A program made the translations under genes and the position numbers. Below, piece after piece: positions 5,775-60,598 of a DNA stretch of 64,000 nucleotides. The notes below the pieces were generated by a model. The model worked only from the letters and a program-made list of their open reading frames with translations. It ran no database searches and was not told where the DNA came from. This DNA is from Candidatus Roizmanbacteria bacterium RIFCSPHIGHO2_02_FULL_40_13b (GTDB lineage Bacteria > Patescibacteriota > Microgenomatia > UBA1406 > HO2-37-13b), in the NCBI GenBank assembly GCA_001789445.1, contig MFZQ01000003.1:2796-66795 (forward strand), in the 5' to 3' direction. Position 1 is the first letter of the stretch. Each line of letters opens with the position of its first letter.

Positions 5775-5847
5775 CTGGGGAGCAAGGATTCGAACCTTGA
5801 GTCGCGCTGCTCCAAAGGCAGGCGTGTTACCGTTACACCACTCCCCA
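5775..5847 (-). tRNA. tRNA-Gln (anticodon UUG)
   Basis: The reverse complement folds by hand. Acceptor TGGGGAG/CTCCCCA, D stem GTGT/ACAC, anticodon loop CTTTGGA, T arm CAAGG-TTCGAAT-CCTTG, discriminator G. U1:A72 with G73 is typical of Gln. One 27:43 mismatch; no encoded CCA. Confidence 0.85.
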
Positions 5848-16843: not shown

Positions 16844-18181
16844 ATGAAATCACCACTTGTCTTACCAAAGATTGTTCAGGATTTTATTGAAACCTTTGAA
16901 AAAAACGGGTTCGAGGTGTACGTGGTTGGCGGGGCTGTACGAGATCTTATTTTAGGAAAAGAAATAACAAACTGGGATTTTACGACCAGTGCGGGCGTGG
17001 AAGAAATTCAAAAATTATTCCCTGATCATTTTTATAACAATGATTATGGAACAGTAACAGTAAAAAAAGAGAGTTTTCTTTTTGAAATTACACCTTATCG
17101 AAAAGAAAGCGATTATGCTGACCTTCGCCATCCGGGAAAAATTGAATGGGCAAAAACGATTGAGGAGGATCTGGCTCGGCGTGATTTTACGATCAATGCT
17201 ATTGCCTACGATAGGAAAAAAGTCATCGATCCATATGATGGACAGGGAGACATTGAGAAAAAGATTGTAAAAGCGGTCGGTGACGCTGATAAGCGATTTA
17301 ACGAAGATGCGCTTCGGCTCCTTCGCGCAGTCCGTATTGCTACTCAACTTGGATTTACTATTGAGGACGCGACAATGACTTCGATCAAAAAAAATGCTGA
17401 ACTAATACTTAAAATCTCGCAAGAACGAATTCGGGACGAACTTTTTAAAATTATTGCATCAACCCGCGGGTCAGACGGAATTTTTCTTTTGAGAGATACT
17501 GGACTCCTCAAACACGTCCTCCCCGAAGTTGAAGCATGTTTTGGTGTTGATCAGGTCAGCCCGGGCAGACATCATACCGTTGACGTTGGTACACATTTGG
17601 TGGAAGCGCTTCGACTTTGTCCATCAAGCGATACAATAACTCGTTTTGCAACACTTCTGCATGATATTGGAAAAACTCCCACATTTCGAAAAGATGAAAC
17701 AACTCAAATGATTACTTTTTACAATCATGAAATCGTTGGTGCAAAAATGGCGCGCGAAATCGCAGATCGTCTGCGTCTTTCCAAAAAAGATCGGGAAAAA
17801 TTAGTTACGCTTGTTCGGTTCCATATGTTCACGGTTTCTGAAAATCAAACAGATAGCGCGATTCGCCGGTTTATTCGAAATGTTGGAAAAGAATATATGT
17901 ACGACGCGCTTGATTTGCGCGTTGCAGACCGGTTGGGAAGCGGGGCAAAGTTAACGTCGTGGAGAACCGAGCTTTTCAAAAAACGACTTGAAGAGGTGCA
18001 ACACGAACCATTTTCGGTAAAAGACCTCAAAATTGACGGAAACGATGTGATGAAAACGCTCGGTCTCAAACCTAGCCCGAAAATCGGCGAAATTCTCCAG
18101 AAACTGTTTGATGAGGTTGTGGGTGAAGAGGTAAAGAATGAGAAAAAGGAACTTTTACAAAAGCTTTCCGAACTTAAATAA
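16844..18181 (+). CDS. cca: CCA-adding tRNA nucleotidyltransferase with HD domain
   Basis: VYVVGGAVRDLILGK, RDFTINA and an HD region HDIGK. Start moved to the ATG at 16844. Confidence 0.85.
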   Translation: MKSPLVLPKIVQDFIETFEKNGFEVYVVGGAVRDLILGKEITNWDFTTSAGVEEIQKLFPDHFYNNDYGTVTVKKESFLFEITPYRKESDYADLRHPGKIEWAKTIEEDLARRDFTINAIAYDRKKVIDPYDGQGDIEKKIVKAVGDADKRFNEDALRLLRAVRIATQLGFTIEDATMTSIKKNAELILKISQERIRDELFKIIASTRGSDGIFLLRDTGLLKHVLPEVEACFGVDQVSPGRHHTVDVGTHLVEALRLCPSSDTITRFATLLHDIGKTPTFRKDETTQMITFYNHEIVGAKMAREIADRLRLSKKDREKLVTLVRFHMFTVSENQTDSAIRRFIRNVGKEYMYDALDLRVADRLGSGAKLTSWRTELFKKRLEEVQHEPFSVKDLKIDGNDVMKTLGLKPSPKIGEILQKLFDEVVGEEVKNEKKELLQKLSELK

Positions 18182-18590
18182 CATCTCCTGGCTCTTTTCG
18201 GATGATTTTCAACTTATCAAATTCCTTATCGTACGAAATAATTGCCCATTCTTTTTTCTGAACCTGGGGAATTGAGGCAAGTAAGCAATCTACAAATTTG
18301 ATATTGTTGGTATTGTATAAATCTAAGGCCTCTATAGTTCCATAACCATCGATAACCTTAAGTCCATTAGTTGTTACCATGTCTCGAACAACTGTAACAA
18401 CTTCACTTTTATTGACTCTGTAAAATGACTCTAAAGTCCAAACAACTTCTGCAACAACCATTGTTGTTGTTATTGCATCAACTATTCCTGATTTTATTGC
18501 TTCTATTAGTTCTACACATTCCTTAAATGATTTTTCATTGTCTCTAGTTAGGATCCTTAGAAAGATATTGGTATCAATAAGATATTTCAT
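18174..18590 (-). CDS. vapC: PIN-domain toxin VapC
   Basis: MKYLIDTNIFLR PIN N-terminus. Its start overlaps the stop of the upstream AbrB-type gene by 4 nt. Confidence 0.8.
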   Translation of the reverse strand: MKYLIDTNIFLRILTRDNEKSFKECVELIEAIKSGIVDAITTTMVVAEVVWTLESFYRVNKSEVVTVVRDMVTTNGLKVIDGYGTIEALDLYNTNNIKFVDCLLASIPQVQKKEWAIISYDKEFDKLKIIRKEPGDVI

Positions 18591-18820
18591 ACCCGTTTAT
18601 ACCTTTTTTCGAATGCTTCACGAGCTTCTAGTACTGACTTACCTCTTGTTATGGGAAATTTACCAGCATATGAGAGAAAGTCTCCAACAGGACTAACCTT
18701 TAAATGATCCTTTTTTAAATCAAATTTAACCTTCCCATATTTTTTAATTCCTAATTTGTCTCTCAACGCTTGTGGTAGAGTTATCTGTCCTTTTTGAGTT
18801 ACTGTTGCTTGATATTGCAT
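18587..18820 (-). CDS. vapB: AbrB/SpoVT-type antitoxin VapB
   Basis: VTQKGQITLPQALRDKLGI swapped-hairpin motif. Confidence 0.75.
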   Translation of the reverse strand: MQYQATVTQKGQITLPQALRDKLGIKKYGKVKFDLKKDHLKVSPVGDFLSYAGKFPITRGKSVLEAREAFEKRYKRV

Positions 18821-18878: not shown

Positions 18879-19826
18879 TCAATACCCTACTTTTTCCACC
18901 AACATCCAGTCAATCAAATTTTTCATACTTGTATCATTGTGCTTTGTAACCAATCCTCGATAGCTTCCACTGTTTTCCAAATTAAGATACGTTAGTATTC
19001 TTTTCCGTAGCCGTTTTTGCAATCTCCGCATATTCGGATATATATCACAGCCTAAAAAATGTAACCCACTTGCTACTGGAATAATCAAGCTATTTTTATT
19101 ATTTATCGTAAGTTTCAAAATATTATTGATAAAAAAAGTTATCAGAATCTCATATTCTTTAGCAATTTGACTATTCTCTGCCACCACTAAAAAATCGTCC
19201 CCATATCGAAGGTACCCTAAAGGTTTTACCGTATGTTCAACAAATCGATCTAGTTCGTTAAGATAAATATTGGCAAAAATCTGGCTGGTAAGATTACCGA
19301 TTGGCATCCCGGTACCTTTTTCCTTGACATAGTAACTATCAACAATCCTGTCTATTATTTTTAATGCACCGCGATCAAATACCTTTCTTCTTACTGTATT
19401 TTTCAGTATTTTATGATCTACTGTATCAAAAAATTTAGTTATATCAGACCTCCAAACATACCCGTATCGATATTTTCCTAATAAATATTGTGTTCGTTCA
19501 ATTGCTCTCAAAAGTCCTTTTCCTTTGCGACATGACCACACATCGTAGATAAAAGATTTATCAAAAAGAGCGGTCAAGTATTCGTTTACTAATCTATGAA
19601 CAATCCTGTCCAGAATTGGAGCTACTGAAATGGTTCTTTTTTTCTTATCAGTAACTTGAAATGTTCGATATAATCCATGTTTGTAGGTGCCTGTTACTAA
19701 ATCATGGTGTACTTGTGAAAGATTTTCCTCAAGATTATAAGTAAAAATATCCATTTCCGTAGTTCTTTTTTTCCCACGTTGAAATGCCTGCCAGGAAAGC
19801 CAAATCTGTGATAAACTTACGTCCAT
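18879..19826 (-). CDS. DGR-1 reverse transcriptase
   Basis: Carries the RT motifs, including MPIGNLTSQIFANIY (the [IL]GxxxSQ signature of DGR RTs) and the catalytic YGDDFLVV. It is adjacent to a TR/VR pair. Confidence 0.9.
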   Translation of the reverse strand: MDVSLSQIWLSWQAFQRGKKRTTEMDIFTYNLEENLSQVHHDLVTGTYKHGLYRTFQVTDKKKRTISVAPILDRIVHRLVNEYLTALFDKSFIYDVWSCRKGKGLLRAIERTQYLLGKYRYGYVWRSDITKFFDTVDHKILKNTVRRKVFDRGALKIIDRIVDSYYVKEKGTGMPIGNLTSQIFANIYLNELDRFVEHTVKPLGYLRYGDDFLVVAENSQIAKEYEILITFFINNILKLTINNKNSLIIPVASGLHFLGCDIYPNMRRLQKRLRKRILTYLNLENSGSYRGLVTKHNDTSMKNLIDWMLVEKVGY

Positions 19827-20175
19827 GGATGCAACAACTCTTCCAGTTATAATGCTGTTATTTGATGTCTATAAACAAGTTACTACAATCAGTGTAAAAT
19901 TACCTAAAAGATGGAATTATGGTCTGGGAATTAGTATTGAGAAAAGTGTTCTTGAATGTCTTGAATATCTCGTTATGGCTAAAAACGCCCCGAAGCAGTT
20001 AAAATCAGCGTATCTTATTAAAGCAAGTGCTCATTTGGAAATGATACGGTTCAAACTGCGCTTAATTCTCGAAAATAAACTTGCCAACGAAACCATAATT
20101 TTTCAAACACAGGCAAACATTGCCGAAGCTGGACGAATGCTTGGCGGGTGGCTCAAATCGACACAAAGTACCTAA
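19825..20175 (+). CDS. avd: DGR-1 Avd-like four-helix-bundle protein, opposite strand to the RT
   Basis: KLPKRWNYGLG...EAGRMLGGWLKS matches the four-helix-bundle (23S rRNA IVS / Avd) family pattern. Its ATG overlaps the RT ATG in a CATG palindrome. Confidence 0.75.
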   Translation: MDATTLPVIMLLFDVYKQVTTISVKLPKRWNYGLGISIEKSVLECLEYLVMAKNAPKQLKSAYLIKASAHLEMIRFKLRLILENKLANETIIFQTQANIAEAGRMLGGWLKSTQST

Positions 20176-20178
20176 ACC

Positions 20179-20289
20179 TCTCACCGTGGGGGCAGTACCC
20201 CAATTACCATTCTGGTTATCAGGATTGTCTGCATTCAACTTCAACTGCCTATTGTCACGATTCCAGTTACCATTCGGCACGTTGCCCGT
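20179..20289 (-). repeat. DGR-1 template repeat (TR1)
   Basis: 111-bp copy of 20519-20629. All 17 differences are A in this copy on the minus strand. AAY-rich. Confidence 0.9.
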
Positions 20290-20503: not shown

Positions 20504-21568
20504 TCAAACACCAATGAGTCTCACCGTGGGGGCAGTACCCCAAAGACCAAACTGGCTACCAGGAGTGCCTGCATTCAACTCCAACTGCCTAATGCCACGA
20601 AACCAGTAACCATCCGGCACGAAGCCCGTTTGTGGATCAACATTACCTATAAGCCATACTGCGCTTTGCTGATTCCACTCATATGAGACTTGTCCTGTTT
20701 CATGAAGGTGAACAGCAAAATCGGTGAGAAAATCTTCGATTGTTCTGCCTGTTTCGCCTGCATACATCGGACCACTAAGTGTTGTGAGATAATCGCGTGG
20801 AGTTGCATTGGTTGCCAGTTGTGTTCTTCCTCCAACCGTTTGTGCTTGATGTGGTTGAGGTAATATAACTGTTGGTTCATCAAATCGAATACTCCAGCCA
20901 GGAACAGCACAAATTCTTGGATCAGTTAGTATTGTTTTTCTGGTTCGTCCACCATGATCGTCAGTAAAACGTTCGGGGAAATATCTCAAACCTTGCTTAG
21001 TAAGAACCCCACGAATTCCATCCCATATCCAGATAGGGTCGGTCGTGTTGACCGCGGCAGGGTGGTCGGCTTCATTTTCATCTCGTTTGGAGAGAAGTAG
21101 GGTGTTTGCCTTTGATCGTGCTATTATAACAATAGCTTCAGTCTTTTTGAGGAGATGTGTGGTTGGAGCGGCAAATGGGGTTAGATCAAGTCTTGAGAAT
21201 CCTTGAGCAGTTTTTCGTTCTGCTAACTCTTGATTTTGCTCGCTACGAAGTATGTTGACAAATTGCTCTCGGGTTGGAATTGGGTATCTTTTTACAAAAC
21301 TATGTTCAGTAATTCCAGTTTCTGCAAGAGATGCAACTCGGGTTTCAAATTGATGCACCAGCGCTTCTTCGCGTTGTTCGGGAGACAAGACAGGTTCTGT
21401 AGTTGAAACATACACAACCTGTTCTTCCCATGGAAGGTCTTTCACAAGACCCCCTTCTTTGGCAGCTAGAAAGGTTTTGAGCGTACCTTCAAGAAATTGT
21501 GCACCGATTTCATTACCATCCTCTCTATGCGCCTCAATCGCCCGCATATGTTCACGTTCCATTGCCAT
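20504..21568 (-). CDS. DGR-1 variable target protein (354 aa)
   Basis: The C-terminal 37 codons are VR1. No signal peptide. GC richer than the flanks. Confidence 0.85.
   Translation of the reverse strand: MAMEREHMRAIEAHREDGNEIGAQFLEGTLKTFLAAKEGGLVKDLPWEEQVVYVSTTEPVLSPEQREEALVHQFETRVASLAETGITEHSFVKRYPIPTREQFVNILRSEQNQELAERKTAQGFSRLDLTPFAAPTTHLLKKTEAIVIIARSKANTLLLSKRDENEADHPAAVNTTDPIWIWDGIRGVLTKQGLRYFPERFTDDHGGRTRKTILTDPRICAVPGWSIRFDEPTVILPQPHQAQTVGGRTQLATNATPRDYLTTLSGPMYAGETGRTIEDFLTDFAVHLHETGQVSYEWNQQSAVWLIGNVDPQTGFVPDGYWFRGIRQLELNAGTPGSQFGLWGTAPTVRLIGV
20519..20629 (-). repeat. DGR-1 variable repeat (VR1)
   Basis: See TR1. It ends 15 nt before the target stop codon. Confidence 0.9.
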
Positions 21569-35612: not shown

Positions 35613-36632
35613 ATGCGTAAGATTGCAGTTGGGTTAAATGGATTTGGGAGAATTGGAAGAGCGTTTACACGAATTGCACTGAACAATCCCGATATTGAAA
35701 TTCGAGCGATTAATACTGCGCATTCAAACACAGAGATCCTCGCCCATCTCCTTAAGTATGACTCTATCTACCGAACATTTGATAAGGATGTTAGTGCAAA
35801 AGGAGATAAGATTATCGTTGGATCCCGCGAGATTGTCTGTTATAACCACAAAAACCCTGAAGAGATTCCATGGGACCACCATAATATTGATGTCGTCATT
35901 GACTGTACCGGCGCATTTAAGACACGTGATGATTTGAGCAAGCATCTACGCGCTACCGTGCAGAAAGTTATCGTCACCGCACCTGTTTCAGATGAAACAA
36001 TTCCTCATATTGTTTTGGGGTCAAATAGTGATGGGTTTGATTTTAAAGCTAAAAATGCCGATATTATCTCGAATGCATCATGTACCACCAACTGTGCATC
36101 AATTATGACAAAAGTTCTCGATGATAATTTCAAAATAAAATCAGCATTTTTAACAACCGTACATGCATATACCAGTAGTCAAGAACTTCTTGACAACGCA
36201 TCTAAAAATGAAACACGTTCTCGTGGGGCGCCACTTTCGATTATTCCGACAACCACTGGGGCTGCGGATGCAGTATGCAAAACAACCGCGTGTGAAGCTG
36301 GAAGCTTAGGAGCTATCGCATTTCGGGTTCCCGTACCCGTCGGATCAATCTCTGATATGACGTGTCTCCTCGAAAAATCAACAACGGTTGAAGAAATTAA
36401 TGAGGTATTTAGAAAAGAGTCGGAAGGAAAACTTAAGGGAATTTTAGGATATGAAAAAACCCCGCTTGTTTCTTCTGACTATATCGGCTCGCCATTTTCC
36501 TGTACATTTGATCCTAATTACACGCAGGTTTTGAATGGAAACTTCGTCAAAATCTTCGGGTGGTACGATAATGAGTGGGGATACTCAAACCGCCTGGTTG
36601 ATTTGATAGAAAAATTATCGAAATATATTTAA
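35613..36632 (+). CDS. gap: Glyceraldehyde-3-phosphate dehydrogenase
   Basis: GLNGFGRIGR, the active site ASCTTNC, and WYDNEWGYS. Confidence 0.92.
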   Translation: MRKIAVGLNGFGRIGRAFTRIALNNPDIEIRAINTAHSNTEILAHLLKYDSIYRTFDKDVSAKGDKIIVGSREIVCYNHKNPEEIPWDHHNIDVVIDCTGAFKTRDDLSKHLRATVQKVIVTAPVSDETIPHIVLGSNSDGFDFKAKNADIISNASCTTNCASIMTKVLDDNFKIKSAFLTTVHAYTSSQELLDNASKNETRSRGAPLSIIPTTTGAADAVCKTTACEAGSLGAIAFRVPVPVGSISDMTCLLEKSTTVEEINEVFRKESEGKLKGILGYEKTPLVSSDYIGSPFSCTFDPNYTQVLNGNFVKIFGWYDNEWGYSNRLVDLIEKLSKYI

Positions 36633-37708
36633 CTCCAAAACCATACATTGTTTTGCAATTCTTTTGATAAACGGTATGTATTCGCATGGCTCAAATATCC
36701 AATATACGACTGGAGCGACTGATCGAATGTTTTTGTATCAATTTTCTCTTTTAACTTAGAAAATACTCTTCTCTTTGTCTTTGTCCGCGGCAGGCGATAG
36801 TGAGGTAAAACAATGTATCCCAAAAAATCTATTCCCCATTCAAGTCTCCGGATAATTATTTTATTTTCATGAAGTGAAAGTTTTAGGTGATTACTTAGAA
36901 AATCTCTTATTTGTTCAATTACTTGAGATATCCGGCTTTGATTTTTGAATAATATAACAAAATCGTCAGCATACCGAATATAGTGGTGGATCTTCAACCC
37001 ATGTTTGACATACTGATCAAGTTCGTTCATGTAAATATTAGCAAACACTTGGCTTGTGAGATTACCAAGAGGGATACCACGTGGAGATTCTATCGTCCCG
37101 CCTGCGACGGGACTCCAGAATGACACATTTCTTGTCATCCTGGACCGGAGGCCGAAGGCCGTAGGGATAGGATCCCAATTCACCTCAAAACTATCAATAA
37201 CCTCTGAAAGAAGTCGAATACTATTTTCATCTTGTATCTTCTTTGCAAGTAACTTTTTAAGAATCTCATGATCAACACTGGCAAAGAATTTATTGATGTC
37301 TAAATGAAGCGCCCAGCAATCTTGCGTATAGTTCTTGGAAACTTTACGGGTAAAAACTTCCAGTCGAGAAACTGCTTTATGAGTTCCTTTATTTAATCTG
37401 CATGAATAAGAGTCTGTGATAAATATTTTGTCAAAAAGTTGGTACAAATATGTGTACAACAAATGATGTACTACCCGATCCTGGACACTCGCTTTATGGA
37501 TATGTCTGCGCTTTGGATCATTAACATAGAATGATTCATATGAACCGTGTCTATATTTTTTAGTAACAAGATCTTGATATAGAGCAAAAAGATTGTCTTC
37601 AAGGTACCGCTCAAAAAGCTGGACATCTTTTTTACCACCCTTTCCCTTCCTAAATTCACCCCATGCACGAAAAACACTGTCCAGACTGACTAATGTGTTA
37701 TAATCCAT
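36629..37708 (-). CDS. DGR-2 reverse transcriptase carrying a ~28-codon repeat-element insertion
   Basis: IPLGNLTSQVFANIY and RYADDFVILF. It aligns with RT1 except for the extra NWDPIPTAFGLRSRMTRNVSFWSPVAGGTIESP. Start moved to MDYNTL because the upstream ATGACA is an element terminus. Confidence 0.85.
   Translation of the reverse strand: MDYNTLVSLDSVFRAWGEFRKGKGGKKDVQLFERYLEDNLFALYQDLVTKKYRHGSYESFYVNDPKRRHIHKASVQDRVVHHLLYTYLYQLFDKIFITDSYSCRLNKGTHKAVSRLEVFTRKVSKNYTQDCWALHLDINKFFASVDHEILKKLLAKKIQDENSIRLLSEVIDSFEVNWDPIPTAFGLRSRMTRNVSFWSPVAGGTIESPRGIPLGNLTSQVFANIYMNELDQYVKHGLKIHHYIRYADDFVILFKNQSRISQVIEQIRDFLSNHLKLSLHENKIIIRRLEWGIDFLGYIVLPHYRLPRTKTKRRVFSKLKEKIDTKTFDQSLQSYIGYLSHANTYRLSKELQNNVWFWS
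37100..37176. mobile_element. Palindromic repeat-element insertion inside RT2
   Basis: tccagaatgaca/tgtcatcctgga 12-bp inverted repeat plus a ggccgaaggcc core shared with the elements at 37718 and 55751. Absent from RT1 at the aligned position. Confidence 0.65.
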
Positions 37709-37717
37709 ATCTAAATT

Positions 37718-37763
37718 TGTCATTCCCGCGAAGGCCGAAGGTCCTCGTAAGGGGACGGGAATC
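37718..37763. mobile_element. TGTCAT/GGCCGAAGG MITE-like element between RT2 and avd2
   Basis: tgtcattcccgcgaaggccgaaggtcctcgtaaggggacgggaatc. Same termini and core as 55751-55826. Confidence 0.65.
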
Positions 37764-37820: not shown

Positions 37821-38179
37821 TGCGTGAGTTTGGCTTAGATATTCCCATATTCGGTGTATTATACGAGTTTTATAAATTGTTGTATCAATATACCAAGTTT
37901 TTCCCAAAAAAAGATCGGTACTCTCTCGGAAAAAAGATTGATACACTCGCACTTAGCCTAATTGAATTAGTCATTTTCGCAGGTAGCACGTCAAAAGAAA
38001 AGAAGCTTCCATATATCCAAAAGGCCATAGTTTCAGTTGACCTTATAAAAATTTTGCTTCGAGTTGCCAAAGATATTGATGCTCTTGAAGGCAAAAAATA
38101 CATCGTTCTTCAGCAAAACCTGCAGGAAATAGGAAGGCAGCTGGGAGGATGGAAAAAATCCATCCCCCCGCTTCTATAA
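37820..38179 (+). CDS. avd: DGR-2 Avd-like four-helix-bundle protein, start unresolved
   Basis: FFPKKDRYSLG...EIGRQLGGWKKS. Gap-free alignment with Avd1 extends 13 codons upstream of the first canonical start (TTG 37877), as far as the codons just downstream of the CA tract. The 37820 start (CTG) is nominal. Confidence 0.65.
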   Translation: MREFGLDIPIFGVLYEFYKLLYQYTKFFPKKDRYSLGKKIDTLALSLIELVIFAGSTSKEKKLPYIQKAIVSVDLIKILLRVAKDIDALEGKKYIVLQQNLQEIGRQLGGWKKSIPPLL

Positions 38180-38192
38180 AACAAGAAACTAT

Positions 38193-38313
38193 CTCGGAAC
38201 GACCACCTACATTCGGATTGTGATTGCCAGGATTCCAATTCGTATTGACATTCAGGTTACCGTCGGTATTGCGATTCGCATTCACGACGCGGTCCTCATT
38301 TCGCGAACCAGGC
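38193..38313 (-). repeat. DGR-2 template repeat (TR2)
   Basis: 121-bp copy of 38629-38749 encoding the Asn-rich RVVNANRNTDGNLNVNTNWNPGNHNPNVGGRSE. 26 of 34 mismatches fall at TR adenines. Confidence 0.85.
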
Positions 38314-38616: not shown

Positions 38617-39399
38617 TCATTTTACTCCCTCGGAACGACCACCCATCGTCGGATAGCGATCGGCAGGCGCCCAAGCCGCATCGACGCACAGGCGACCGCC
38701 AGTAAGGCGACGCGCATCCACGACACGACCCCCACCCCGCGAACCAGGCAGACGGCTCCAGGTATTTATGTCAGGGTATACTCCTGTACGATCATGAAGT
38801 TCTTCACCAAAAACAATATATGTGTCTACTGTCATGCCATGCACACCCTGTTCTTGAATAGCCTGTATAAGTTGTGCTTCAGTAGTATCAAGATGTGGGG
38901 AATCAGCGCTGTCTTTTACCACTAGCCAACCAGTGCGTTCTTGTTCATTTTTGAGCGTATTACCGGGTTCCACCGTCCAGCTTTGCAAGTGTGGGTGAAT
39001 GACACCAAGATGTTCCCGTGTGACACCCTCTGGACGATAGATAAGCGCCCATCCGTCCTCGTGTAGTTGTTGTAGCTCTTCTTGGGAATAGTTACAAGGA
39101 GCAATCTCTACTGTAAGCTCGGCTCGGGGAGCAAGAATATTCCATCGGTTTGTCCAGTATGCTGTATACCTTTCAGGGGTTTTGACTCCTTCAGCACTGA
39201 ATTCTGTAGCAAGTGCAACGAGAGGATCAACTACAACTGCTTCTGGCGTCACATCTGATCGAGATAGTTCCTCAATTTGTCGGGCAAGAGCATTATGAGC
39301 TTGGGCTATATGAAGAAGTCCTTCAACAGCCAAGCGTTGACTATCGTTTTCAGGTAGCTCCGCAAGATTTTGTAATAGGTCCTGTTCTGCACGAAACAT
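38617..39399 (-). CDS. DGR-2 variable target protein (260 aa)
   Basis: The C-terminal ~40 codons are VR2. No signal peptide. GC-rich relative to the flanks. Confidence 0.8.
   Translation of the reverse strand: MFRAEQDLLQNLAELPENDSQRLAVEGLLHIAQAHNALARQIEELSRSDVTPEAVVVDPLVALATEFSAEGVKTPERYTAYWTNRWNILAPRAELTVEIAPCNYSQEELQQLHEDGWALIYRPEGVTREHLGVIHPHLQSWTVEPGNTLKNEQERTGWLVVKDSADSPHLDTTEAQLIQAIQEQGVHGMTVDTYIVFGEELHDRTGVYPDINTWSRLPGSRGGGRVVDARRLTGGRLCVDAAWAPADRYPTMGGRSEGVK
38629..38749 (-). repeat. DGR-2 variable repeat (VR2)
   Basis: See TR2. It ends 9 nt before the TGA stop. Confidence 0.85.
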
Positions 39400-43376: not shown

Positions 43377-43972
43377 ATGATTCTATCCTCCATTAATTGA
43401 TTAACAATCGCAACTACCTCTGATGGTCGTGGGGTTTGAAGAAATTCAATGTTTTGGTTTGTTCCAGGAGTTTGTATATTTACGTCTCCGTAATTGAATA
43501 TTGATGGGAGAAATCCAGATGACGAACCGGTGACATCAACGATTTCCTGCATCGTTGTTGCCGCTACTTCACGACTAATAATAATATTGTAATTAATATC
43601 TATTACTCTACGATTTGTGATAATTCCCACATTAAACGTCCAATCAATTATGTTTAGCAGTACATAGGAAAAAATGGATGCATACCAAAAAAAGTTGACG
43701 AATAAAGATTCTGAAATTTGTAAAAGTGGTGCCGTAAAAAGATTAACAAATAGAGGGACAAAAAGAAGAAGGACTGCAGTTACCACCCATGAGATTTGGG
43801 TTACTGGATGAGCCCGAAGTACAAGAATAACATCTTCTCCAACCTGTTGTTCTTCAAAACGAACCTTAGGCCGGTAACAAAAAGAGTGAAGCGCTTTGTG
43901 CTTCTGTGCAGTTTTGGCATCAAATACCGTTGGCATGGAACTTAGTATATACAAAAAAAGCCCTGGCGACAA
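43373..43972 (-). CDS. bPH_2/YdbS-like membrane protein
   Basis: Two TM spans followed by ITNRRVIDINYN, a PH-like segment. Confidence 0.5.
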   Translation of the reverse strand: MSPGLFLYILSSMPTVFDAKTAQKHKALHSFCYRPKVRFEEQQVGEDVILVLRAHPVTQISWVVTAVLLLFVPLFVNLFTAPLLQISESLFVNFFWYASIFSYVLLNIIDWTFNVGIITNRRVIDINYNIIISREVAATTMQEIVDVTGSSSGFLPSIFNYGDVNIQTPGTNQNIEFLQTPRPSEVVAIVNQLMEDRII

Positions 43973-44135
43973 CCCATTTTCCCTTCAGCATAAAGCTGTA
44001 AGTATCGTAGGTGCATTTCTGTTTCATGACTCTGTTCGAGATGGGAAGAGATGGTTCCAAAAATGCCAGGAATCACCAAGGCAATACGTATTATACAAAA
44101 GAGGCGCCGTTTTGTCTAGCGTAAAAAGAGAGTTG

Positions 44136-45475: not shown

Positions 45476-45581
45476 ACTGTATATCCGGGACTGATTATTT
45501 GTCATCTCGATATGATGAATAGCCAGTCCTGGATATGCACACTCGGTGCAGATCTATATAAACGGACAGAAAGGTTACACC

Positions 45582-46538
45582 ATGAACGTGCGCTTTTTTC
45601 GCGCGATCTCGGTCGTTGTCCTTGCCGGGTTTCTTGCGCTTGTCGCAACTGGCTTTGGTACCGCTACCGCGTACGCGCAGTCCTCCCCACAGTGCCCGCG
45701 CGTCGAGCATCGATCCGACCCGTTCAGCCCGCTAAAAACAACTAGCGGATGCACTATCGTCGGCGTACTCAATTCGATCTCAGCGCATAGCGTGTACCAT
45801 CCACCGGACCGTGCAACGCACCTTGTCGTTCAAGAACACTCAGGTATTTGGAGATTGCTTGCTCCCGTGCATCTACGCACGGTCGACTTCTCTCGAGGGT
45901 TTCTGAACTGGGGAGACAAAGGAGTCGAGGTTCTAGCGCTCAACTGTGCAACTGGTCCACAATTCGACCGCGATTTTACCTTACGTTTTGTGGGCAGCAG
46001 CGACCTTTGGGTCGATGCAGAGCAGGAGCCACACGGCTTAAATCGTAATACCGGTCCTGCCAACGGGAATATAGTCGTAAGTCCCAACTGCGTCAGCGTA
46101 GGAGATGCGGTGTCGCCCAATTTGACGCCCGTACCTACCCCCACGCCACCGGACCTCGACCACTTCAAAGGCGAACTGCTACTTATTTACAGCCCCGCCT
46201 GCGTAATGTGCAGATGTCCTGTACAAGTGGCTGTCGTCAGGAATCCGCCGATTGCACTCCGGTTCGGCTCGAACATTGAGATCCACGGTGGATACACTTG
46301 TCCGGATAGTGTACTAGCGGAAGCAGCCTGGCTCGTTCGGAATGGCGCCTACCCGGTTGCTCCGGAGATGTTGGTGAGGTTCTTGCCAACCTACACACCC
46401 GCTCCTAGCACCACGACGACCGCAACAAGTACACGAACACCAACTCGGGCGCCAACCCAAACGTCCACCAGAACATCAACACCGGCGCCGACAACGCAGC
46501 TGTTAAAGCACATCTTCCTACCACAGCTAGACGACTAG
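45582..46538 (+). CDS. High-GC secreted protein with Thr/Pro-rich tail
   Basis: Signal peptide MNVRFFRAISVVVLAGFLALVATGFGTATAYA. About 58 % GC in a counted 60-nt sample versus about 38 % in the flanks. C-terminal TTTTATSTRTPTRAPTQTSTRTSTPAPT. Confidence 0.6.
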   Translation: MNVRFFRAISVVVLAGFLALVATGFGTATAYAQSSPQCPRVEHRSDPFSPLKTTSGCTIVGVLNSISAHSVYHPPDRATHLVVQEHSGIWRLLAPVHLRTVDFSRGFLNWGDKGVEVLALNCATGPQFDRDFTLRFVGSSDLWVDAEQEPHGLNRNTGPANGNIVVSPNCVSVGDAVSPNLTPVPTPTPPDLDHFKGELLLIYSPACVMCRCPVQVAVVRNPPIALRFGSNIEIHGGYTCPDSVLAEAAWLVRNGAYPVAPEMLVRFLPTYTPAPSTTTTATSTRTPTRAPTQTSTRTSTPAPTTQLLKHIFLPQLDD

Positions 46539-46984: not shown

Positions 46985-47317
46985 TTATATAATTTGTTTT
47001 AATCTTTCAAGCCCTATTTTTATTTCTTTTAGGGGAGTTTTCTGAGTTTTCTTCTTGAAGGCATGAATTACATAAAACGTATTTGCTACGTTAGTGTAGA
47101 AAACTCTGACGGACTCCTTTCCGAGAACACGGAGTTCAAATATATTTGATGTTATTTTCTTTGCATAAGGCATCCGAAGATATGGACCCCTTACTTTTAG
47201 AGCTGTAATTAGATGAAGGATTTTGGAAGTTGTTTTCATATTTTGTTTGTCAATAAAATCTTGTACTGGATAATCTCCCCTTTTATTTTGAAAAAATTTA
47301 ATAGGATAGTAATCCAT
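46985..47317 (-). CDS. higB: RelE/HigB (Gp49-like) toxin
   Basis: IFELRVLGKESVRVFYTNVANTFYVIHAFKKKTQKTP. Start moved to MDYYPIKF. Confidence 0.75.
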   Translation of the reverse strand: MDYYPIKFFQNKRGDYPVQDFIDKQNMKTTSKILHLITALKVRGPYLRMPYAKKITSNIFELRVLGKESVRVFYTNVANTFYVIHAFKKKTQKTPLKEIKIGLERLKQII

Positions 47318-47318
47318 A

Positions 47319-48839
47319 CTATTCTTCTTTCGCCCTGTATTGGAGCGCTTCAGAAACATGCGCAACACTTACGGAGTTACTTTTTTCCAAATCCGCAATC
47401 GTTTGTGAAATTTTGATGATTTTGAAGTATGATCGGGCAGAGAGGGAGAGGCGCGAGATCGCTTGTTTGAGGAGTGCCTGTGCATCAGGATCTATCATAC
47501 AAAACTCCCTAATTTGGGAAGCTGTCATTTCACTATTTGTTCTAATTTTTGCTTCACTAAATCTCTCCTCTTGGCGCGCACGCGCTTCATGTACTTTGAT
47601 TCGAATAGACTCGCTCGTTTCTGCATTTGCAGCATTTGTAAGTGCCTCTTCATCAACCGGGTCAACGGTAACATGAATATCGATTCTGTCAAGAATTGGC
47701 CCAGACACTTTTTTCTTATACAGAGAAATTTGCGCATAACTACAATGGCACGCCCGTTTCGGATGACCTAGGTATCCGCATGGGCACGGGTTTGATGCGG
47801 CAAGAAGTAAGAATCTGGACGGAAAAATAATTGATCCAGAAACCCGGGCAACAGAGATAATTCCATCCTCCAGAGGTTGCCGAAGCGCCTCAATTACATG
47901 GCGGGGAAATTCTGGAAATTCATCTAGAAAGAGAGCTCCGCGGTGGGCAAGGGATATTTCACCTGGAGTAAGCTTGGTTCCACCCCCGATGAGAGCGGCT
48001 CTTGAAATAGTGTGATGCGGGGCTCGAAATGGTCGCGTCAAACAAACTCCAGCGCTTGTCGTAATCCCAGCAATAGAATATATTTTTGAAACTTCAATAA
48101 TTTCTTCTGTATCCATTGACGGTAATATTGAAGGAAATGCCCGAGCAAGGAGCGTTTTCCCCGCACCTGGTGGACCTTTGAGATGGACATTGTGGAAACC
48201 TGCGGCCGCAATGAGAAGGGCCCGTTTTGCATAGTCTTGCCCGTATACGGTACTAAAATCAAAATCATATATGATGTCTGGAACTAGTTTTTCTACTGAA
48301 ATATGAGAAAGTGGTTCAATCGATTTGACTTGATTTATATGTAAAATTAAGTCAGTCAACTTTTCAACAGGATATACCGTAACTCCTAAAACCATCGCCG
48401 CTTCTTGCGCATTTTTAGTTGGAACGAAAATATTCTTTACTTTTTGGTTTCTGGCAAGAATTGTAATAGGGAGAATCCCCGGCACTGGTTGGATTTTACC
48501 ATCAAGCGAAAGTTCGCCAACAAATAAACTGTTTTCAACAAACGTATTGTCAATTATTTTAGATGAGGCAAGAATTCCAACCGCAATAGGTAAGTCAAAA
48601 AGAGAACCTTCTTTTGGAATATCAGCTGGCGCCAGGTTTACAACTATCCGAGATTCTGGCATATCGTATCCAGAGTTATGAATTGCAGTTTTTACTCGCT
48701 CTTTTGACTCGTCAATTGCTTTACTTGGAAGGCCAACAATATTAAATGTTGGAAGTCCCCTCGAGGCCACATCAACCTCAACTTTTATACACACCCCATC
48801 GAGTCCAACCGTTGTTGCTGATAGTATGGTGGTTAACAT
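47319..48839 (-). CDS. comM: YifB/ComM Mg-chelatase-like AAA ATPase
   Basis: Lon-like N-domain, Walker A GPPGAGKT, and the C-terminal ChlI region. Confidence 0.9.
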   Translation of the reverse strand: MLTTILSATTVGLDGVCIKVEVDVASRGLPTFNIVGLPSKAIDESKERVKTAIHNSGYDMPESRIVVNLAPADIPKEGSLFDLPIAVGILASSKIIDNTFVENSLFVGELSLDGKIQPVPGILPITILARNQKVKNIFVPTKNAQEAAMVLGVTVYPVEKLTDLILHINQVKSIEPLSHISVEKLVPDIIYDFDFSTVYGQDYAKRALLIAAAGFHNVHLKGPPGAGKTLLARAFPSILPSMDTEEIIEVSKIYSIAGITTSAGVCLTRPFRAPHHTISRAALIGGGTKLTPGEISLAHRGALFLDEFPEFPRHVIEALRQPLEDGIISVARVSGSIIFPSRFLLLAASNPCPCGYLGHPKRACHCSYAQISLYKKKVSGPILDRIDIHVTVDPVDEEALTNAANAETSESIRIKVHEARARQEERFSEAKIRTNSEMTASQIREFCMIDPDAQALLKQAISRLSLSARSYFKIIKISQTIADLEKSNSVSVAHVSEALQYRAKEE

Positions 48840-59640: not shown

Positions 59641-60087
59641 ATGAGAATTTACAATAAAAAAGCAACGCGGGATTATACAGTAATCGAAACCTATGAAGCG
59701 GGTATTGCGTTGCATGGGGCAGAAGTGAAGGCTGTGCGTGCGGGAAATATGAAACTTGAGGGTGCACATGTACGATTTATCGATAATGAGCTGTTTCTCG
59801 TAAATTCCGAAGTCTCGATCTACAAATTTGCTCGTCCTGAAGATTACAATCCTACACGCACAAGAAAACTACTCTTACACAAGGGGGAGATTTTACGCTT
59901 GAGAACAAAAATGAAGACGGCAAACAATTTGACTGTTATACCTATAGCATGTTATAATAAGAAGAGCTTATTAAAGCTTGAAATCGCGCTTGTTAAGAGT
60001 AAAAAGAATTGGGAAAAGAAGCGAGTAGAACAGCGTAAAGATGAAGAAAGAAAGATTGAGAAAGAAATGAAGGAATATAGGGGATGA
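59641..60087 (+). CDS. smpB: SsrA-binding protein SmpB
   Basis: NKKATRDYTVIETYEAGIALHGAEVKAVRAG and the basic C-terminal tail. Confidence 0.9.
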   Translation: MRIYNKKATRDYTVIETYEAGIALHGAEVKAVRAGNMKLEGAHVRFIDNELFLVNSEVSIYKFARPEDYNPTRTRKLLLHKGEILRLRTKMKTANNLTVIPIACYNKKSLLKLEIALVKSKKNWEKKRVEQRKDEERKIEKEMKEYRG

Positions 60088-60470
60088 ATGGTATCGACGT
60101 AGAGATCAGCACATTAAAAAATCGCCAGGCCGGACCTATCCGTTAAATAGAAAACTCTAAATGCAGAAGATAATTCTGTAGGTTACGGCTACCAATATGC
60201 ACTTGCTGCATAATCAGTAGTTAGTAACCCGTTTTCTTCACCGTTTTACTCTGTGTTCAACACGAAGAAAGCGAAAACCAATACAGAGTGCGTAGTTTCT
60301 GGATTTTATAGCTAGTTTGCCAGATTCTGCAAAGGCCCCTCGGGGTATACAAACAATTGCTTCCACCGAAAATTGATGATTATATCGGCGGAATACTAAA
60401 TCATCTATGCCTGGCTACACGATTTGCAATGTGCCTTTACGGACCCGGGTTCAACTCCCGGCATCTCCAC
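60080..60470 (+). ncRNA. ssrA: tmRNA (SsrA)
   Basis: 5' GGGGATGAATGGTATCGACG. Tag reading frame 60163-60213 is GCA GAA ... = AEDNSVGYGYQYALAA-stop. 3' T arm CGGGTTCAACTCCCG, and acceptor CATCTCC pairing with the 5' end. Confidence 0.85.
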
Positions 60471-60598
60471 ACTTCGCCCCGTCGGATTGGCGGGGCTTCG
60501 CGTGGCAAGCCACCATTTAAGAAAAAGTTGGGGTCGAGAATAATGGCGAAGTGTGTCCCGCGTAGCTCGAGCGTACGCGAGAAGCGAAGTGGGATTAT

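What the first reader, a model, noticed from the sequence alone, without database searches (positions are those of the whole stretch)
20504..21568. DGR targets appear to be a cytoplasmic, GC-rich family without the classic FGE/C-lectin VR signature
Neither target (354 aa; 260 aa at 38617..39399) has a signal peptide or TM span. Their N-termini are MAMEREHMRAIEAHRE and MFRAEQDLLQNLAEL. Both are visibly GC-richer than neighbouring genes. By eye the regions preceding the VRs show loose collinearity (TIEDFLTDFAVHLHETGQVSYEWNQQSAVWLIGN versus TVDTYIVFGEELHDRTGVYPDINTWSRLPGS). The VRs end in WGTAPTVR and VGGRSE rather than the familiar GFR(C/L) endings I associate with FGE-type VRs. They may represent a poorly characterised variable-protein scaffold. 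I cannot verify homology without profile searches.
Basis: inference. Interest (0 to 1): 0.6.

Follow-up and report, generated by a model that had tools for sequence, protein, structure and literature searches.

The report
Soluble DGR targets of unassigned fold
Two hypermutation cassettes in a Candidatus Roizmanbacteria genome each rewrite the tail of a soluble protein with no export signal and no known domain, which adds detail to a published open question rather than revealing a new system.

Summary
Both ORFs are genuine, active targets of diversity-generating retroelements (DGRs). In T1, 17 of 17 TR/VR mismatches fall at template adenines; in T2, 27 of 36 do. Database variants differ almost only at those codons. 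Neither protein has a hydrophobic segment, and neither hits Pfam, NCBIfam, PADLOC, PHROGs or PDB sequences.

Several points need correcting:
- GC is raised (0.455 and 0.494 against 0.387), but GC3 is not. This reflects amino-acid composition, not foreign origin.
- The two proteins are not one family. Profile comparison gives only a marginal link (E 2-5e-4), and the signal sits in the variable regions. The pre-VR collinearity seen by eye is not significant on its own (8/80 shuffles).
- Relatives do end in GFRSEGVK and G[VFA]RS.VR[VIL], so a GFR-like ending is present.

New points:
- The T1 module belongs to a large family (812 clusters) found in Bacteria and Archaea. In 72 of 76 complete loci it has no template repeat nearby, and its tail is conserved.
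- Some relatives carry an N-terminal AAA_5 ATPase.
- T1's first 52 residues match the N-terminus of a T2-family protein.

The fold is unresolved because both AlphaFold models were poor. Wu 2018 and Roux 2021 already describe unclassifiable, domain-less CPR (Candidate Phyla Radiation) targets.

The parts
20504..21568 (-). T1, the variable protein of DGR1 (354 aa). It is soluble and acidic (pI 5.55).
   Evidence: ORF; no library hit; hydropathy.
21413..21568 (-). T1 residues 1-52, an N-terminal helical leader shared with a T2-family protein from another metagenome (L083).
   Evidence: phmmer E 8e-9, 29 bits, about 46% identity; tblastn E 7e-7. This is the most confident part of the AF2 model (pLDDT 65-73, two helices).
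20507..21292 (-). T1 residues 93-354, a conserved module of about 260 aa. It belongs to a large uncharacterised family.
   Evidence: Exhaustive profile search found 812 cluster representatives at E<=1e-3 and 290 at <=1e-30. There are 80 loci in GTDB genomes of Bacteria and Archaea.
20519..20629 (-). VR1, covering T1 residues 314-350.
   Evidence: 85% identical to TR1, and all 17 mismatches fall at TR adenines. All 7 positions that vary among database variants lie in TR-A codons.
20179..20289 (-). TR1, the template repeat. It has 34 adenines and 22 codons containing A.
   Evidence: It has only one VR partner in the window.
19825..20175 (+). bAvd accessory gene of DGR1, on the strand opposite to the target, TR and RT. 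Its start codon overlaps the RT1 start head-to-head.
   Evidence: Pfam bAvd E 6.8e-10; coordinates.
18879..19826 (-). Reverse transcriptase of DGR1.
   Evidence: Pfam RVT_1 E 7.9e-17. The translation contains IGNLTSQ and YGDD.
38617..39399 (-). T2, the variable protein of DGR2 (260 aa). It is soluble and acidic (pI 4.94).
   Evidence: The family is small and DGR-linked.
38624..38749 (-). VR2, covering T2 residues 217-259.
   Evidence: 71% identical to TR2; 27 of 36 mismatches fall at TR adenines. Of 23 positions that vary among 8 database variants, 17 lie in TR-A codons.
38188..38313 (-). TR2, the template repeat.
37877..38179 (+). bAvd accessory gene of DGR2, on the opposite strand.
   Evidence: Pfam bAvd E 1.9e-17.
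36629..37723 (-). Reverse transcriptase of DGR2.
   Evidence: Pfam RVT_1 E 2.1e-22. The translation contains LGNLTSQ and YADD.

Best explanation
The window comes from a Candidatus Roizmanbacteria (CPR) genome and carries two complete, active diversity-generating retroelements. Both have the CPR-typical layout: target gene, then TR, then an inverted avd, then RT.

Mechanism. This is the established DGR mechanism and is inferred here, not shown. RT together with Avd copies the TR RNA into cDNA, misincorporating opposite adenines. The cDNA then replaces the last 110-126 nt of the target gene. In each target 22 codons can vary, giving about 10^19 possible proteins.

The targets. Both are soluble, acidic proteins without a signal peptide or membrane span, so they most likely work inside the cell. 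They belong to two separate, uncharacterised families.

T1 is a chimera. It joins a 52-residue leader, also found on a T2-family protein, to a module of about 260 residues. That module is widespread in Bacteria and Archaea as a stand-alone, non-diversified gene with a conserved tail. In some relatives it is fused behind an AAA_5 (MoxR/midasin-type) ATPase.

Proposed function. I infer that the C-terminal segment of this module is a ligand-contact surface and that CPR DGRs have captured it to generate new binding specificities. The most probable structure of the variable segment is a divergent C-type-lectin/FGE-like C-terminal sheet, as in every solved DGR variable protein. This could not be shown here.
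For: DGR identity and activity:
- TR/VR pairs are present.
- Mismatches are adenine-specific: 17/17 in DGR1 and 27/36 in DGR2.
- RT and bAvd have Pfam hits, and both RTs carry the [IL]GNLTSQ motif.
- Variants in public data differ at 7/7 (T1) and 17/23 (T2) positions lying in TR-A codons.

Soluble proteins:
- Hydropathy is low compared with in-window membrane controls.
- Only 2 of 155 T1-family proteins have a 19-residue window with hydropathy of 1.8 or more, and 0 of 16 T2-family proteins do.
- P0048, P0068 and P0112 carry N-terminal AAA_5 domains.

Breadth of the T1 family:
- One search found 812 cluster representatives.
- One search found 80 loci, 18 of them archaeal.
- 72 of 76 complete loci have no TR-like repeat, and only 3 of 80 have an RT or Avd nearby.
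- In the 69 aligned non-DGR loci the VR-equivalent tail is as conserved as the rest of the module, at 0.61 against 0.65 pairwise identity.

T2 family and leader sharing:
- All 6 loci with enough flanking sequence have an A-specific TR, all 6 also have an Avd, and 5 of the 6 also have an RT; in the sixth the contig ends within the avd gene.
- Leader sharing is shown.

CLec-like hints:
- Family endings are GFRSEGVK and G[VFA]RS.VR.
- The T2 VR aligns in register with the C-terminal GGS...GFR segment of FGE-type proteins. The score is 15.6 against a null of 9.9 +/- 2.1, with 1 of 100 shuffles reaching it.
- As precedent, AvpA was unclassifiable by sequence yet proved to have a CLec fold (PMC5006420).
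Against: - The fold is not established. The AF2 models have mean pLDDT 47.5 and 47.0, with about 30 in the VRs. Foldseek hits are noise, with E>1.6.
- There is no Pfam or PDB sequence or profile match.
- hhalign of the T1 VR against FGE is not above shuffles (12/100).
- Absence of a recognisable signal peptide does not prove a cytoplasmic location. Export signals in CPR bacteria are poorly studied, and classical DGR targets are surface proteins.
- Nothing indicates what ligand is bound. Non-DGR homologues have no conserved neighbours.
- DGR2 shows 9 non-adenine mismatches.
- The DGR status of the AAA_5-fused relatives could not be checked, because no DNA context was available for them.
Confidence: 0.6

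Rival explanations
1. T1 and T2 are ordinary divergent CLec/FGE-type DGR adhesins. They reach the cell surface by an unrecognised route and mediate attachment of the episymbiotic CPR cell to its host. On this view nothing about them is unusual except sequence divergence.
For: - All solved DGR variable proteins have a CLec fold, including the sequence-unclassifiable AvpA (PMC5006420).
- Family-level GFR-type endings are present.
- There is a weak in-register match of the T2 VR to the FGE C-terminus.
- The CPR literature favours attachment roles (PMC10221324).
Against: - No hydrophobic N-terminus or TM segment is found in T1 or T2, and essentially none in 171 family members.
- Some relatives are fused to AAA_5 ATPases, which are cytoplasmic machines.
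- Most T1-family members are non-diversified housekeeping-like genes in free-living Chloroflexi, Actinomycetota, methanogens and Asgard archaea.
- No HMM or profile link to FGE or DUF1566 was found.
Confidence: 0.25
2. The variable segment sits on a scaffold that is neither a CLec nor an Ig fold. This would be a new DGR-compatible fold defined by the T1-type module of about 260 residues, with T2 as a shorter relative.
For: - There is no detectable relation to CLec, FGE, DUF1566 or Ig families by HMM, profile or profile-profile search.
- The 260-residue module is inherited as one unit, whereas a CLec domain typically recombines as a separate 110-residue unit (nearly all hits span profile positions ~9-303).
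- Wu 2018 left such CPR VR classes (UVR1-6) unassigned.
Against: - My profile-profile test lacks power. FGE against DUF1566, both CLec folds, reached only probability 2.4%. The negatives therefore say little.
- The motif pattern W..R...P....G[FV]RS.V resembles the FGE-type VR.
- Earlier 'unclassifiable' variable proteins turned out to have a CLec fold.
Confidence: 0.2
3. T1 and T2 are homologous members of one variable-protein family.
For:
- 0 of 120 shuffles reach the real score.
- The VR-only comparison exceeds within-VR shuffles, with 0 of 80 reaching it.
- The N-terminal leader is shared.
Against: - hhalign probability is only 32-46%.
- The signal disappears without the VR columns (17.4 against a null of 18.2 +/- 3.3) and against non-DGR T1 relatives (score 16.6).
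- Hypervariable columns produced by the same adenine-mutagenesis chemistry can resemble each other without common descent.
- BLASTP finds nothing.
- The leader match involves one T2-family protein only, which points to domain swapping rather than shared ancestry of the whole protein.
Confidence: 0.35
4. The raised GC content marks the target genes as recently acquired foreign DNA.
For: GC is 0.455 and 0.494 against a window mean of 0.387.
Against: - GC3 is 0.31 and 0.34, indistinguishable from neighbouring housekeeping genes at 0.26-0.36.
- The excess lies in codon positions 1 and 2, and in the VR and TR (GC 0.50-0.63).
- The same genes occur in several Roizmanbacteria genomes.
Confidence: 0.05

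Closest known systems
CLec-fold DGR variable proteins (Mtd of Bordetella phage BPP-1, TvpA of Treponema denticola, archaeal AvpA, TaqVP of Thermus aquaticus)
   Same: - The VR occupies the last 37-43 residues, and TR adenines sit mainly in codon positions 1 and 2.
- About 10^19 variants are possible.
- Invariant W, R, P and G-x-R positions are interspersed with variable ones.
- Relatives end in GFRS or G[VF]RS.V.
   Different: - No sequence, HMM or profile similarity was detected.
- Mtd is a phage tail-fibre protein and TvpA, from my own knowledge of the literature, a lipoprotein; neither T1 nor T2 has a signal peptide, lipobox or phage context.
- The T1 module is about 260 residues long and is conserved as one unit.
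- The fold was not determined here.
Unclassified CPR target classes 'UVR1-6' of Wu et al. 2018 (NAR 46:11), including UVR4 targets with a midasin/AAA P-loop domain
   Same: - They come from CPR groundwater genomes and share the B3 cassette architecture with a reoriented avd.
- The targets have no assignable fold.
- A subset carries an N-terminal AAA ATPase, as T1-family relatives P0048, P0068 and P0112 do with AAA_5.
   Different: I could not check whether T1 or T2 fall in a named UVR class, because the supplement is not held. That paper did not report the large non-DGR family behind the T1 module, or the leader swap.
CPR clade-2 DGR targets of Roux et al. 2021 (Nat Commun 12:3076)
   Same: They are described as typically lacking any recognisable transmembrane or other conserved domain. 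The question of whether they are genuine non-membrane-bound targets is left open.
   Different: The present work adds hydropathy at family level, AAA_5 fusions and non-DGR homologues. These favour the non-membrane reading but do not prove it.
Multidomain regulatory DGR targets of cyanobacteria (Vallota-Eastman et al. 2020, BMC Genomics 21:664)
   Same: These are DGR targets proposed to act in intracellular signalling rather than surface attachment.
   Different: Those proteins have recognisable kinase, peptidase or repeat domains. T1 and T2 have no recognisable domain at all.

Membership tests
DGR variable (target) protein | A VR at the 3' end of the ORF, with a near-identical TR close by. | tested here: met
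   VR1/TR1 are 111 nt and 85% identical. VR2/TR2 are 126 nt and 71% identical.
DGR variable (target) protein | TR/VR differences fall at TR adenines. | tested here: met
   17/17 in DGR1 and 27/36 in DGR2.
DGR variable (target) protein | An adjacent DGR-type RT (with the [IL]GxxxSQ motif) and an Avd accessory protein. | tested here: met
   RVT_1 and bAvd Pfam hits. IGNLTSQ and LGNLTSQ appear in the translations.
DGR variable (target) protein | Natural variants differ specifically in the VR. | tested here: met
   For T1, 7/7 variable positions lie in TR-A codons. For T2, 17/23 do.
FGE-sulfatase / CLec-fold target (Pfam PF03781 type) | A match to the family HMM or to solved members. | tested here: not met
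   No Pfam hit for T1, T2, 120 T1 relatives, 14 T2 relatives or C-terminal fragments at E up to 10. No PDB hit with single sequences or with profiles.
FGE-sulfatase / CLec-fold target (Pfam PF03781 type) | Profile-profile similarity of the VR-bearing domain. | tested here: inconclusive
   T2 VR against six real FGE-type proteins scores 15.6, E 0.036, with 1/100 shuffles reaching it. The T1 VR is not above shuffles. The control FGE against DUF1566 reached only probability 2.4%, so the test has little power.
FGE-sulfatase / CLec-fold target (Pfam PF03781 type) | A CLec three-dimensional fold with variable residues on one exposed face. | tested here: inconclusive
FGE-sulfatase / CLec-fold target (Pfam PF03781 type) | A C-terminal GFR[C/S/L]-type ending to the VR. 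| tested here: inconclusive
   T1 (WGTAPTVRL) and T2 (MGGRSEGVK) lack it. Relatives have GFRSEGVK and GFRSAVG or GVRSAVRV.
DUF1566 (Lcl C-terminal, CLec-type) target | An HMM or profile match. | tested here: not met
   No Pfam hit. hhalign against six real DUF1566 proteins is at noise level.
Ig-like DGR target | An Ig-type domain carrying the VR. | tested here: not met
   No Ig-family Pfam hit in any member. The fold itself was not determined.
One common T1+T2 family | Significant homology outside the hypervariable columns. | tested here: not met
   With VR columns removed the score is 17.4 against a null of 18.2 +/- 3.3. The pre-VR stretch alone is reached by 8/80 shuffles. With the VR included, E is 2-5e-4.
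Wu 2018 UVR classes (e.g. UVR4 with midasin AAA) | The VR aligns with a named UVR logo. | not testable with these tools
   The supplementary alignments are not held.

The most novel reading that the evidence does not exclude
The T1-type module of about 260 residues is a previously undescribed intracellular recognition domain, found across Bacteria and Archaea. It is not a CLec fold. Its conserved C-terminal tail binds a cellular or invader-derived ligand. CPR bacteria have placed that tail under DGR control, sometimes behind an AAA_5 ATPase, to produce a cytoplasmic repertoire of binding specificities for defence or regulation. The swapped 52-residue leader would dock both T1- and T2-type proteins to a common partner.
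Probability: 0.15. Interest if true: 0.7.

Novelty: new member of a known kind. Interest (0 to 1): 0.38.

Why it matters
DGR targets are usually surface or phage receptor-binding proteins. Whether the abundant CPR DGRs instead diversify intracellular proteins is an explicit open question (Roux 2021).

This window offers two clean, active examples and three concrete leads:
- a large non-diversified parent family for T1, which supplies the sequences needed for a deep-alignment structure prediction or for crystallisation
- AAA_5 fusions pointing to a cytoplasmic role
- a leader shared between the two target types

None of this changes what a DGR is. It narrows where to look for the function of CPR variable proteins.

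Tried and rejected
1. I spent the third homologous-protein search on an alignment of T1+T2 chimeras, hoping to serve both families at once. The candidate cap meant only 3 known proteins came back, so the search was wasted.
2. AlphaFold2 on the shallow alignments A3 (8 sequences) and A4 (6 sequences) gave pLDDT 47.5 and 47.0.
4. Profile searches of the PDB with 138-sequence and 14-sequence alignments found nothing.
5. Pfam scans of 120 and 14 members, and of C-terminal fragments at E<=10, found nothing recurrent. NCBIfam, PADLOC and PHROGs hit only the AAA part of fused relatives.
6. I ran hhalign against alignments built from real FGE-type proteins (phage records) and real DUF1566 proteins (plasmid records). 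Results were negative or marginal, and the FGE-against-DUF1566 control showed the test is too weak to exclude a CLec fold.
7. Neighbour analysis of 80 T1-family loci found no conserved partner gene.
8. A viral-contig scan with AAA-type relatives found none.
9. The closest T1 homologue, P0002 (64% identity), has no TR or RT on its 2.6-kb contig.
10. The foreign-DNA reading of the high GC was rejected, because GC3 is normal.
11. Paul et al. 2017 (PMC5436926), the primary CPR DGR paper, is not held. The Wu 2018 supplements are not held either.

Full report
**What is there**

The window is from a Candidatus Roizmanbacteria (CPR) genome. The two proteins are identical or 98% identical to GenBank entries from the RIFCSP groundwater genomes.

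It holds two complete DGR cassettes on the minus strand.
- DGR1: T1 at 20504-21568, VR1 at 20519-20629, TR1 at 20179-20289, bAvd at 19825-20175 on the plus strand, and RT at 18879-19826.
- DGR2: T2 at 38617-39399, VR2 at 38624-38749, TR2 at 38188-38313, bAvd at 37877-38179 on the plus strand, and RT at 36629-37723.

The evidence for these assignments is as follows.
- Repeats are shown.
- RVT_1 and bAvd domains are shown.
- Both RTs carry the [IL]GNLTSQ motif.
- All 17 TR1/VR1 mismatches, and 27 of 36 TR2/VR2 mismatches, fall at TR adenines.
- Each TR has a single VR partner in the window.

**The elements are active**

The 90%-identity cluster of T1 has five members. They differ at 7 positions, all within residues 316-335 and all in codons whose TR counterpart contains A.

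The T2 cluster has eight members differing at 23 positions. Of these, 17 lie in TR-A codons. Each TR has 22 A-containing codons, which allows about 10^19 protein variants.

- *No export signal: confirmed.* The most hydrophobic 19-residue window scores 0.90 (T1) and 1.29 (T2). SecD, SecF and two exported proteins of the same window score 2.1-2.8. At family level, only 2 of 155 T1 relatives barely reach 1.8, and none of 16 T2 relatives does.
- *GC-richness: confirmed, but the implication is not.* GC is 0.455 and 0.494 against 0.387, but GC3 is 0.31 and 0.34, like the neighbours. The excess reflects amino-acid composition and the GC-rich VR and TR. It does not indicate foreign origin.
- *VR endings: true only for these two sequences.* T2 relatives end in MGFRSEGVK or VGFRSEGVK. 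T1 relatives end in GFRSAVG, GVRSAVRV or GARSTVRL. A GFR-like ending is therefore present in both families.

**Are the two targets related?**

- BLASTP finds nothing, and shallow profiles give probability 1.25%.
- With deeper alignments (120 T1 relatives, 14-16 T2 relatives), hhalign aligns T2 residues 100-256 with T1 residues 204-347, collinearly. The scores are 36.4 (E 2.1e-4, probability 46%) and 33.6 (E 4.9e-4, probability 32%).
- None of 120 column or block shuffles reaches the real score (maximum 28.9).
- With the VR columns removed the score falls to 17.4, against a null of 18.2 +/- 3.3.
- Against the non-DGR T1 relatives alone, the score is 16.6.
- The pre-VR stretch alone is matched by 8 of 80 shuffles.
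- The VR-only comparison beats all 80 within-VR shuffles.

The two VRs therefore share an ordered pattern of fixed and variable positions. Homology of the rest of the proteins is unproven, and columns shaped by the same mutagenesis chemistry may inflate the score.

Separately, T1 residues 1-52 are about 46% identical to the N-terminus of a T2-family protein in metagenome locus L083 (phmmer E 8e-9). A leader has been exchanged between the two target types.

**What the families are**

T2 belongs to a small family: 6 proteins among 5.8 billion and 12 metagenome loci. All six loci with enough flanking sequence carry an adenine-specific TR and an inverted Avd, and five of the six also carry an RT2-like RT; in the sixth the contig ends within the avd gene. 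T2 is a dedicated CPR DGR target.

T1 is different.
- An exhaustive profile search found 812 cluster representatives (290 at E<=1e-30). The module of about 300 residues is almost always at the C-terminus.
- A scan of GTDB species genomes returned 80 loci. Eighteen are archaeal, including Asgard, Bathyarchaeota, methanogens and DPANN. The rest include many Chloroflexota, Actinomycetota, Caldisericota and others.
- Only 3 of these loci have an RT and Avd nearby.
- 72 of 76 complete genes have no TR-like repeat, and 59 of those have at least 2 kb of downstream sequence.
- In the 69 aligned non-DGR loci, the VR-equivalent tail (consensus LVPTGRWHRDVGRARLDAHRTGNRLCTRSWGGSSTVRL) is as conserved as the rest of the module, at 0.61 against 0.65 pairwise identity.
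- These genes have no conserved neighbours.

The scan patterns favoured the branch closest to T1, so the proportion for the whole family is unknown. A second, more divergent branch has tails with a DGR-like pattern of variation. It includes proteins with N-terminal AAA_5 ATPase domains: P0048, P0068 and P0112. I could not obtain DNA context for that branch.

**Fold**

The fold is unresolved. No Pfam, NCBIfam, PADLOC, PHROG or PDB match was found for either family at any threshold tried. The AF2 models were poor, and Foldseek results on them were noise.

Against alignments of real FGE-type and DUF1566 proteins fetched from phage and plasmid records, results were as follows.
- Only the T2 VR shows a weak, in-register match to the FGE C-terminus (1 of 100 shuffles reach it).
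- The control comparison of FGE against DUF1566 itself reached only probability 2.4%. These negatives therefore cannot exclude a CLec fold.
- As precedent, AvpA was unclassifiable by sequence and proved to have a CLec fold (PMC5006420).

**Relation to the literature**

- Wu et al. 2018 grouped 126 CPR DGRs. They found the B3 architecture in 90% of them.
- They left six VR classes (UVR1-6) and 45 further VRs unassigned to any fold.
- They linked UVR4 targets to a midasin-type AAA domain.
- Roux et al. 2021 state that CPR clade-2 targets typically lack TM or other conserved domains. They leave open whether these are genuine non-membrane targets.

What may be new is the large non-DGR parent family of T1, the conserved tail in that family, the leader swap, and the limits on T1-T2 homology.

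**Verdict**

These are real, active DGR targets of unassigned fold. They are probably cytoplasmic, and they are ordinary for CPR. The interest is moderate and lies in the leads for structure and function.

Noticed in passing
window 45546-46538 (+), probable start at 45583: This ORF has GC 0.558 in a 0.387 window. It has a textbook signal peptide (MNVRFFRAISVVVLAGFLALVATGFGTATAYA/Q) and a Pro/Thr-rich tail, and no Pfam hit. It is the GC-richest long ORF of the window and may be foreign. A Gp49/HigB-like toxin gene lies next to it at 46985-47368(-).
   Followed up: partly
window 19825-20175 (+) and 37877-38179 (+): Both avd genes are on the strand opposite to the target, TR and RT. The avd1 and RT1 start codons overlap head-to-head by 2 nt, so a TR-RT transcript must run antisense through avd. 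The same order is seen in related loci L004, L017 and L085-L094. It matches the CPR-typical 'B3' architecture of Wu 2018.
   Followed up: partly
window 21413-21568 (-) and L083:675-830: The 52-residue N-terminal leader of T1 recurs at about 46% identity on a T2-family protein from another metagenome. This implies domain shuffling between DGR target families.
   Followed up: yes
L004:3839-5768: A Patescibacteria genome carries two tandem T1-family genes in front of one DGR. Their tails are 88% identical to each other.
   Followed up: partly
L017 and L018: These contigs are binned as Pseudomonadales and Gammaproteobacteria MAGs. Yet they carry a T1-type target, an A-specific TR, an Avd, and an RT with E 3e-114 to RT1. 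They are probably CPR contigs that were mis-binned.
   Followed up: no
window 43961-44080 (-): The 5S rRNA gene stands alone, and no 23S rRNA is detected within about 5 kb. A tmRNA lies at 60080-60472(+) and a tRNA at 5775-5847(-).
   Followed up: partly
window 38624-38749 vs 38188-38313: DGR2 has 9 non-adenine TR/VR mismatches (3 C, 4 T, 2 G) alongside 27 adenine ones. DGR1 has none. T2 variants in public data still vary mainly at TR-A codons.
   Followed up: partly
window 18174-18820 (-): Two small ORFs sit directly downstream of RT1, in the arrangement of a toxin-antitoxin pair. By eye the translations look like a PIN/VapC-type toxin (138 aa) and a small AbrB/VapB-like antitoxin (77 aa). 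This was not checked with any library.
   Followed up: no
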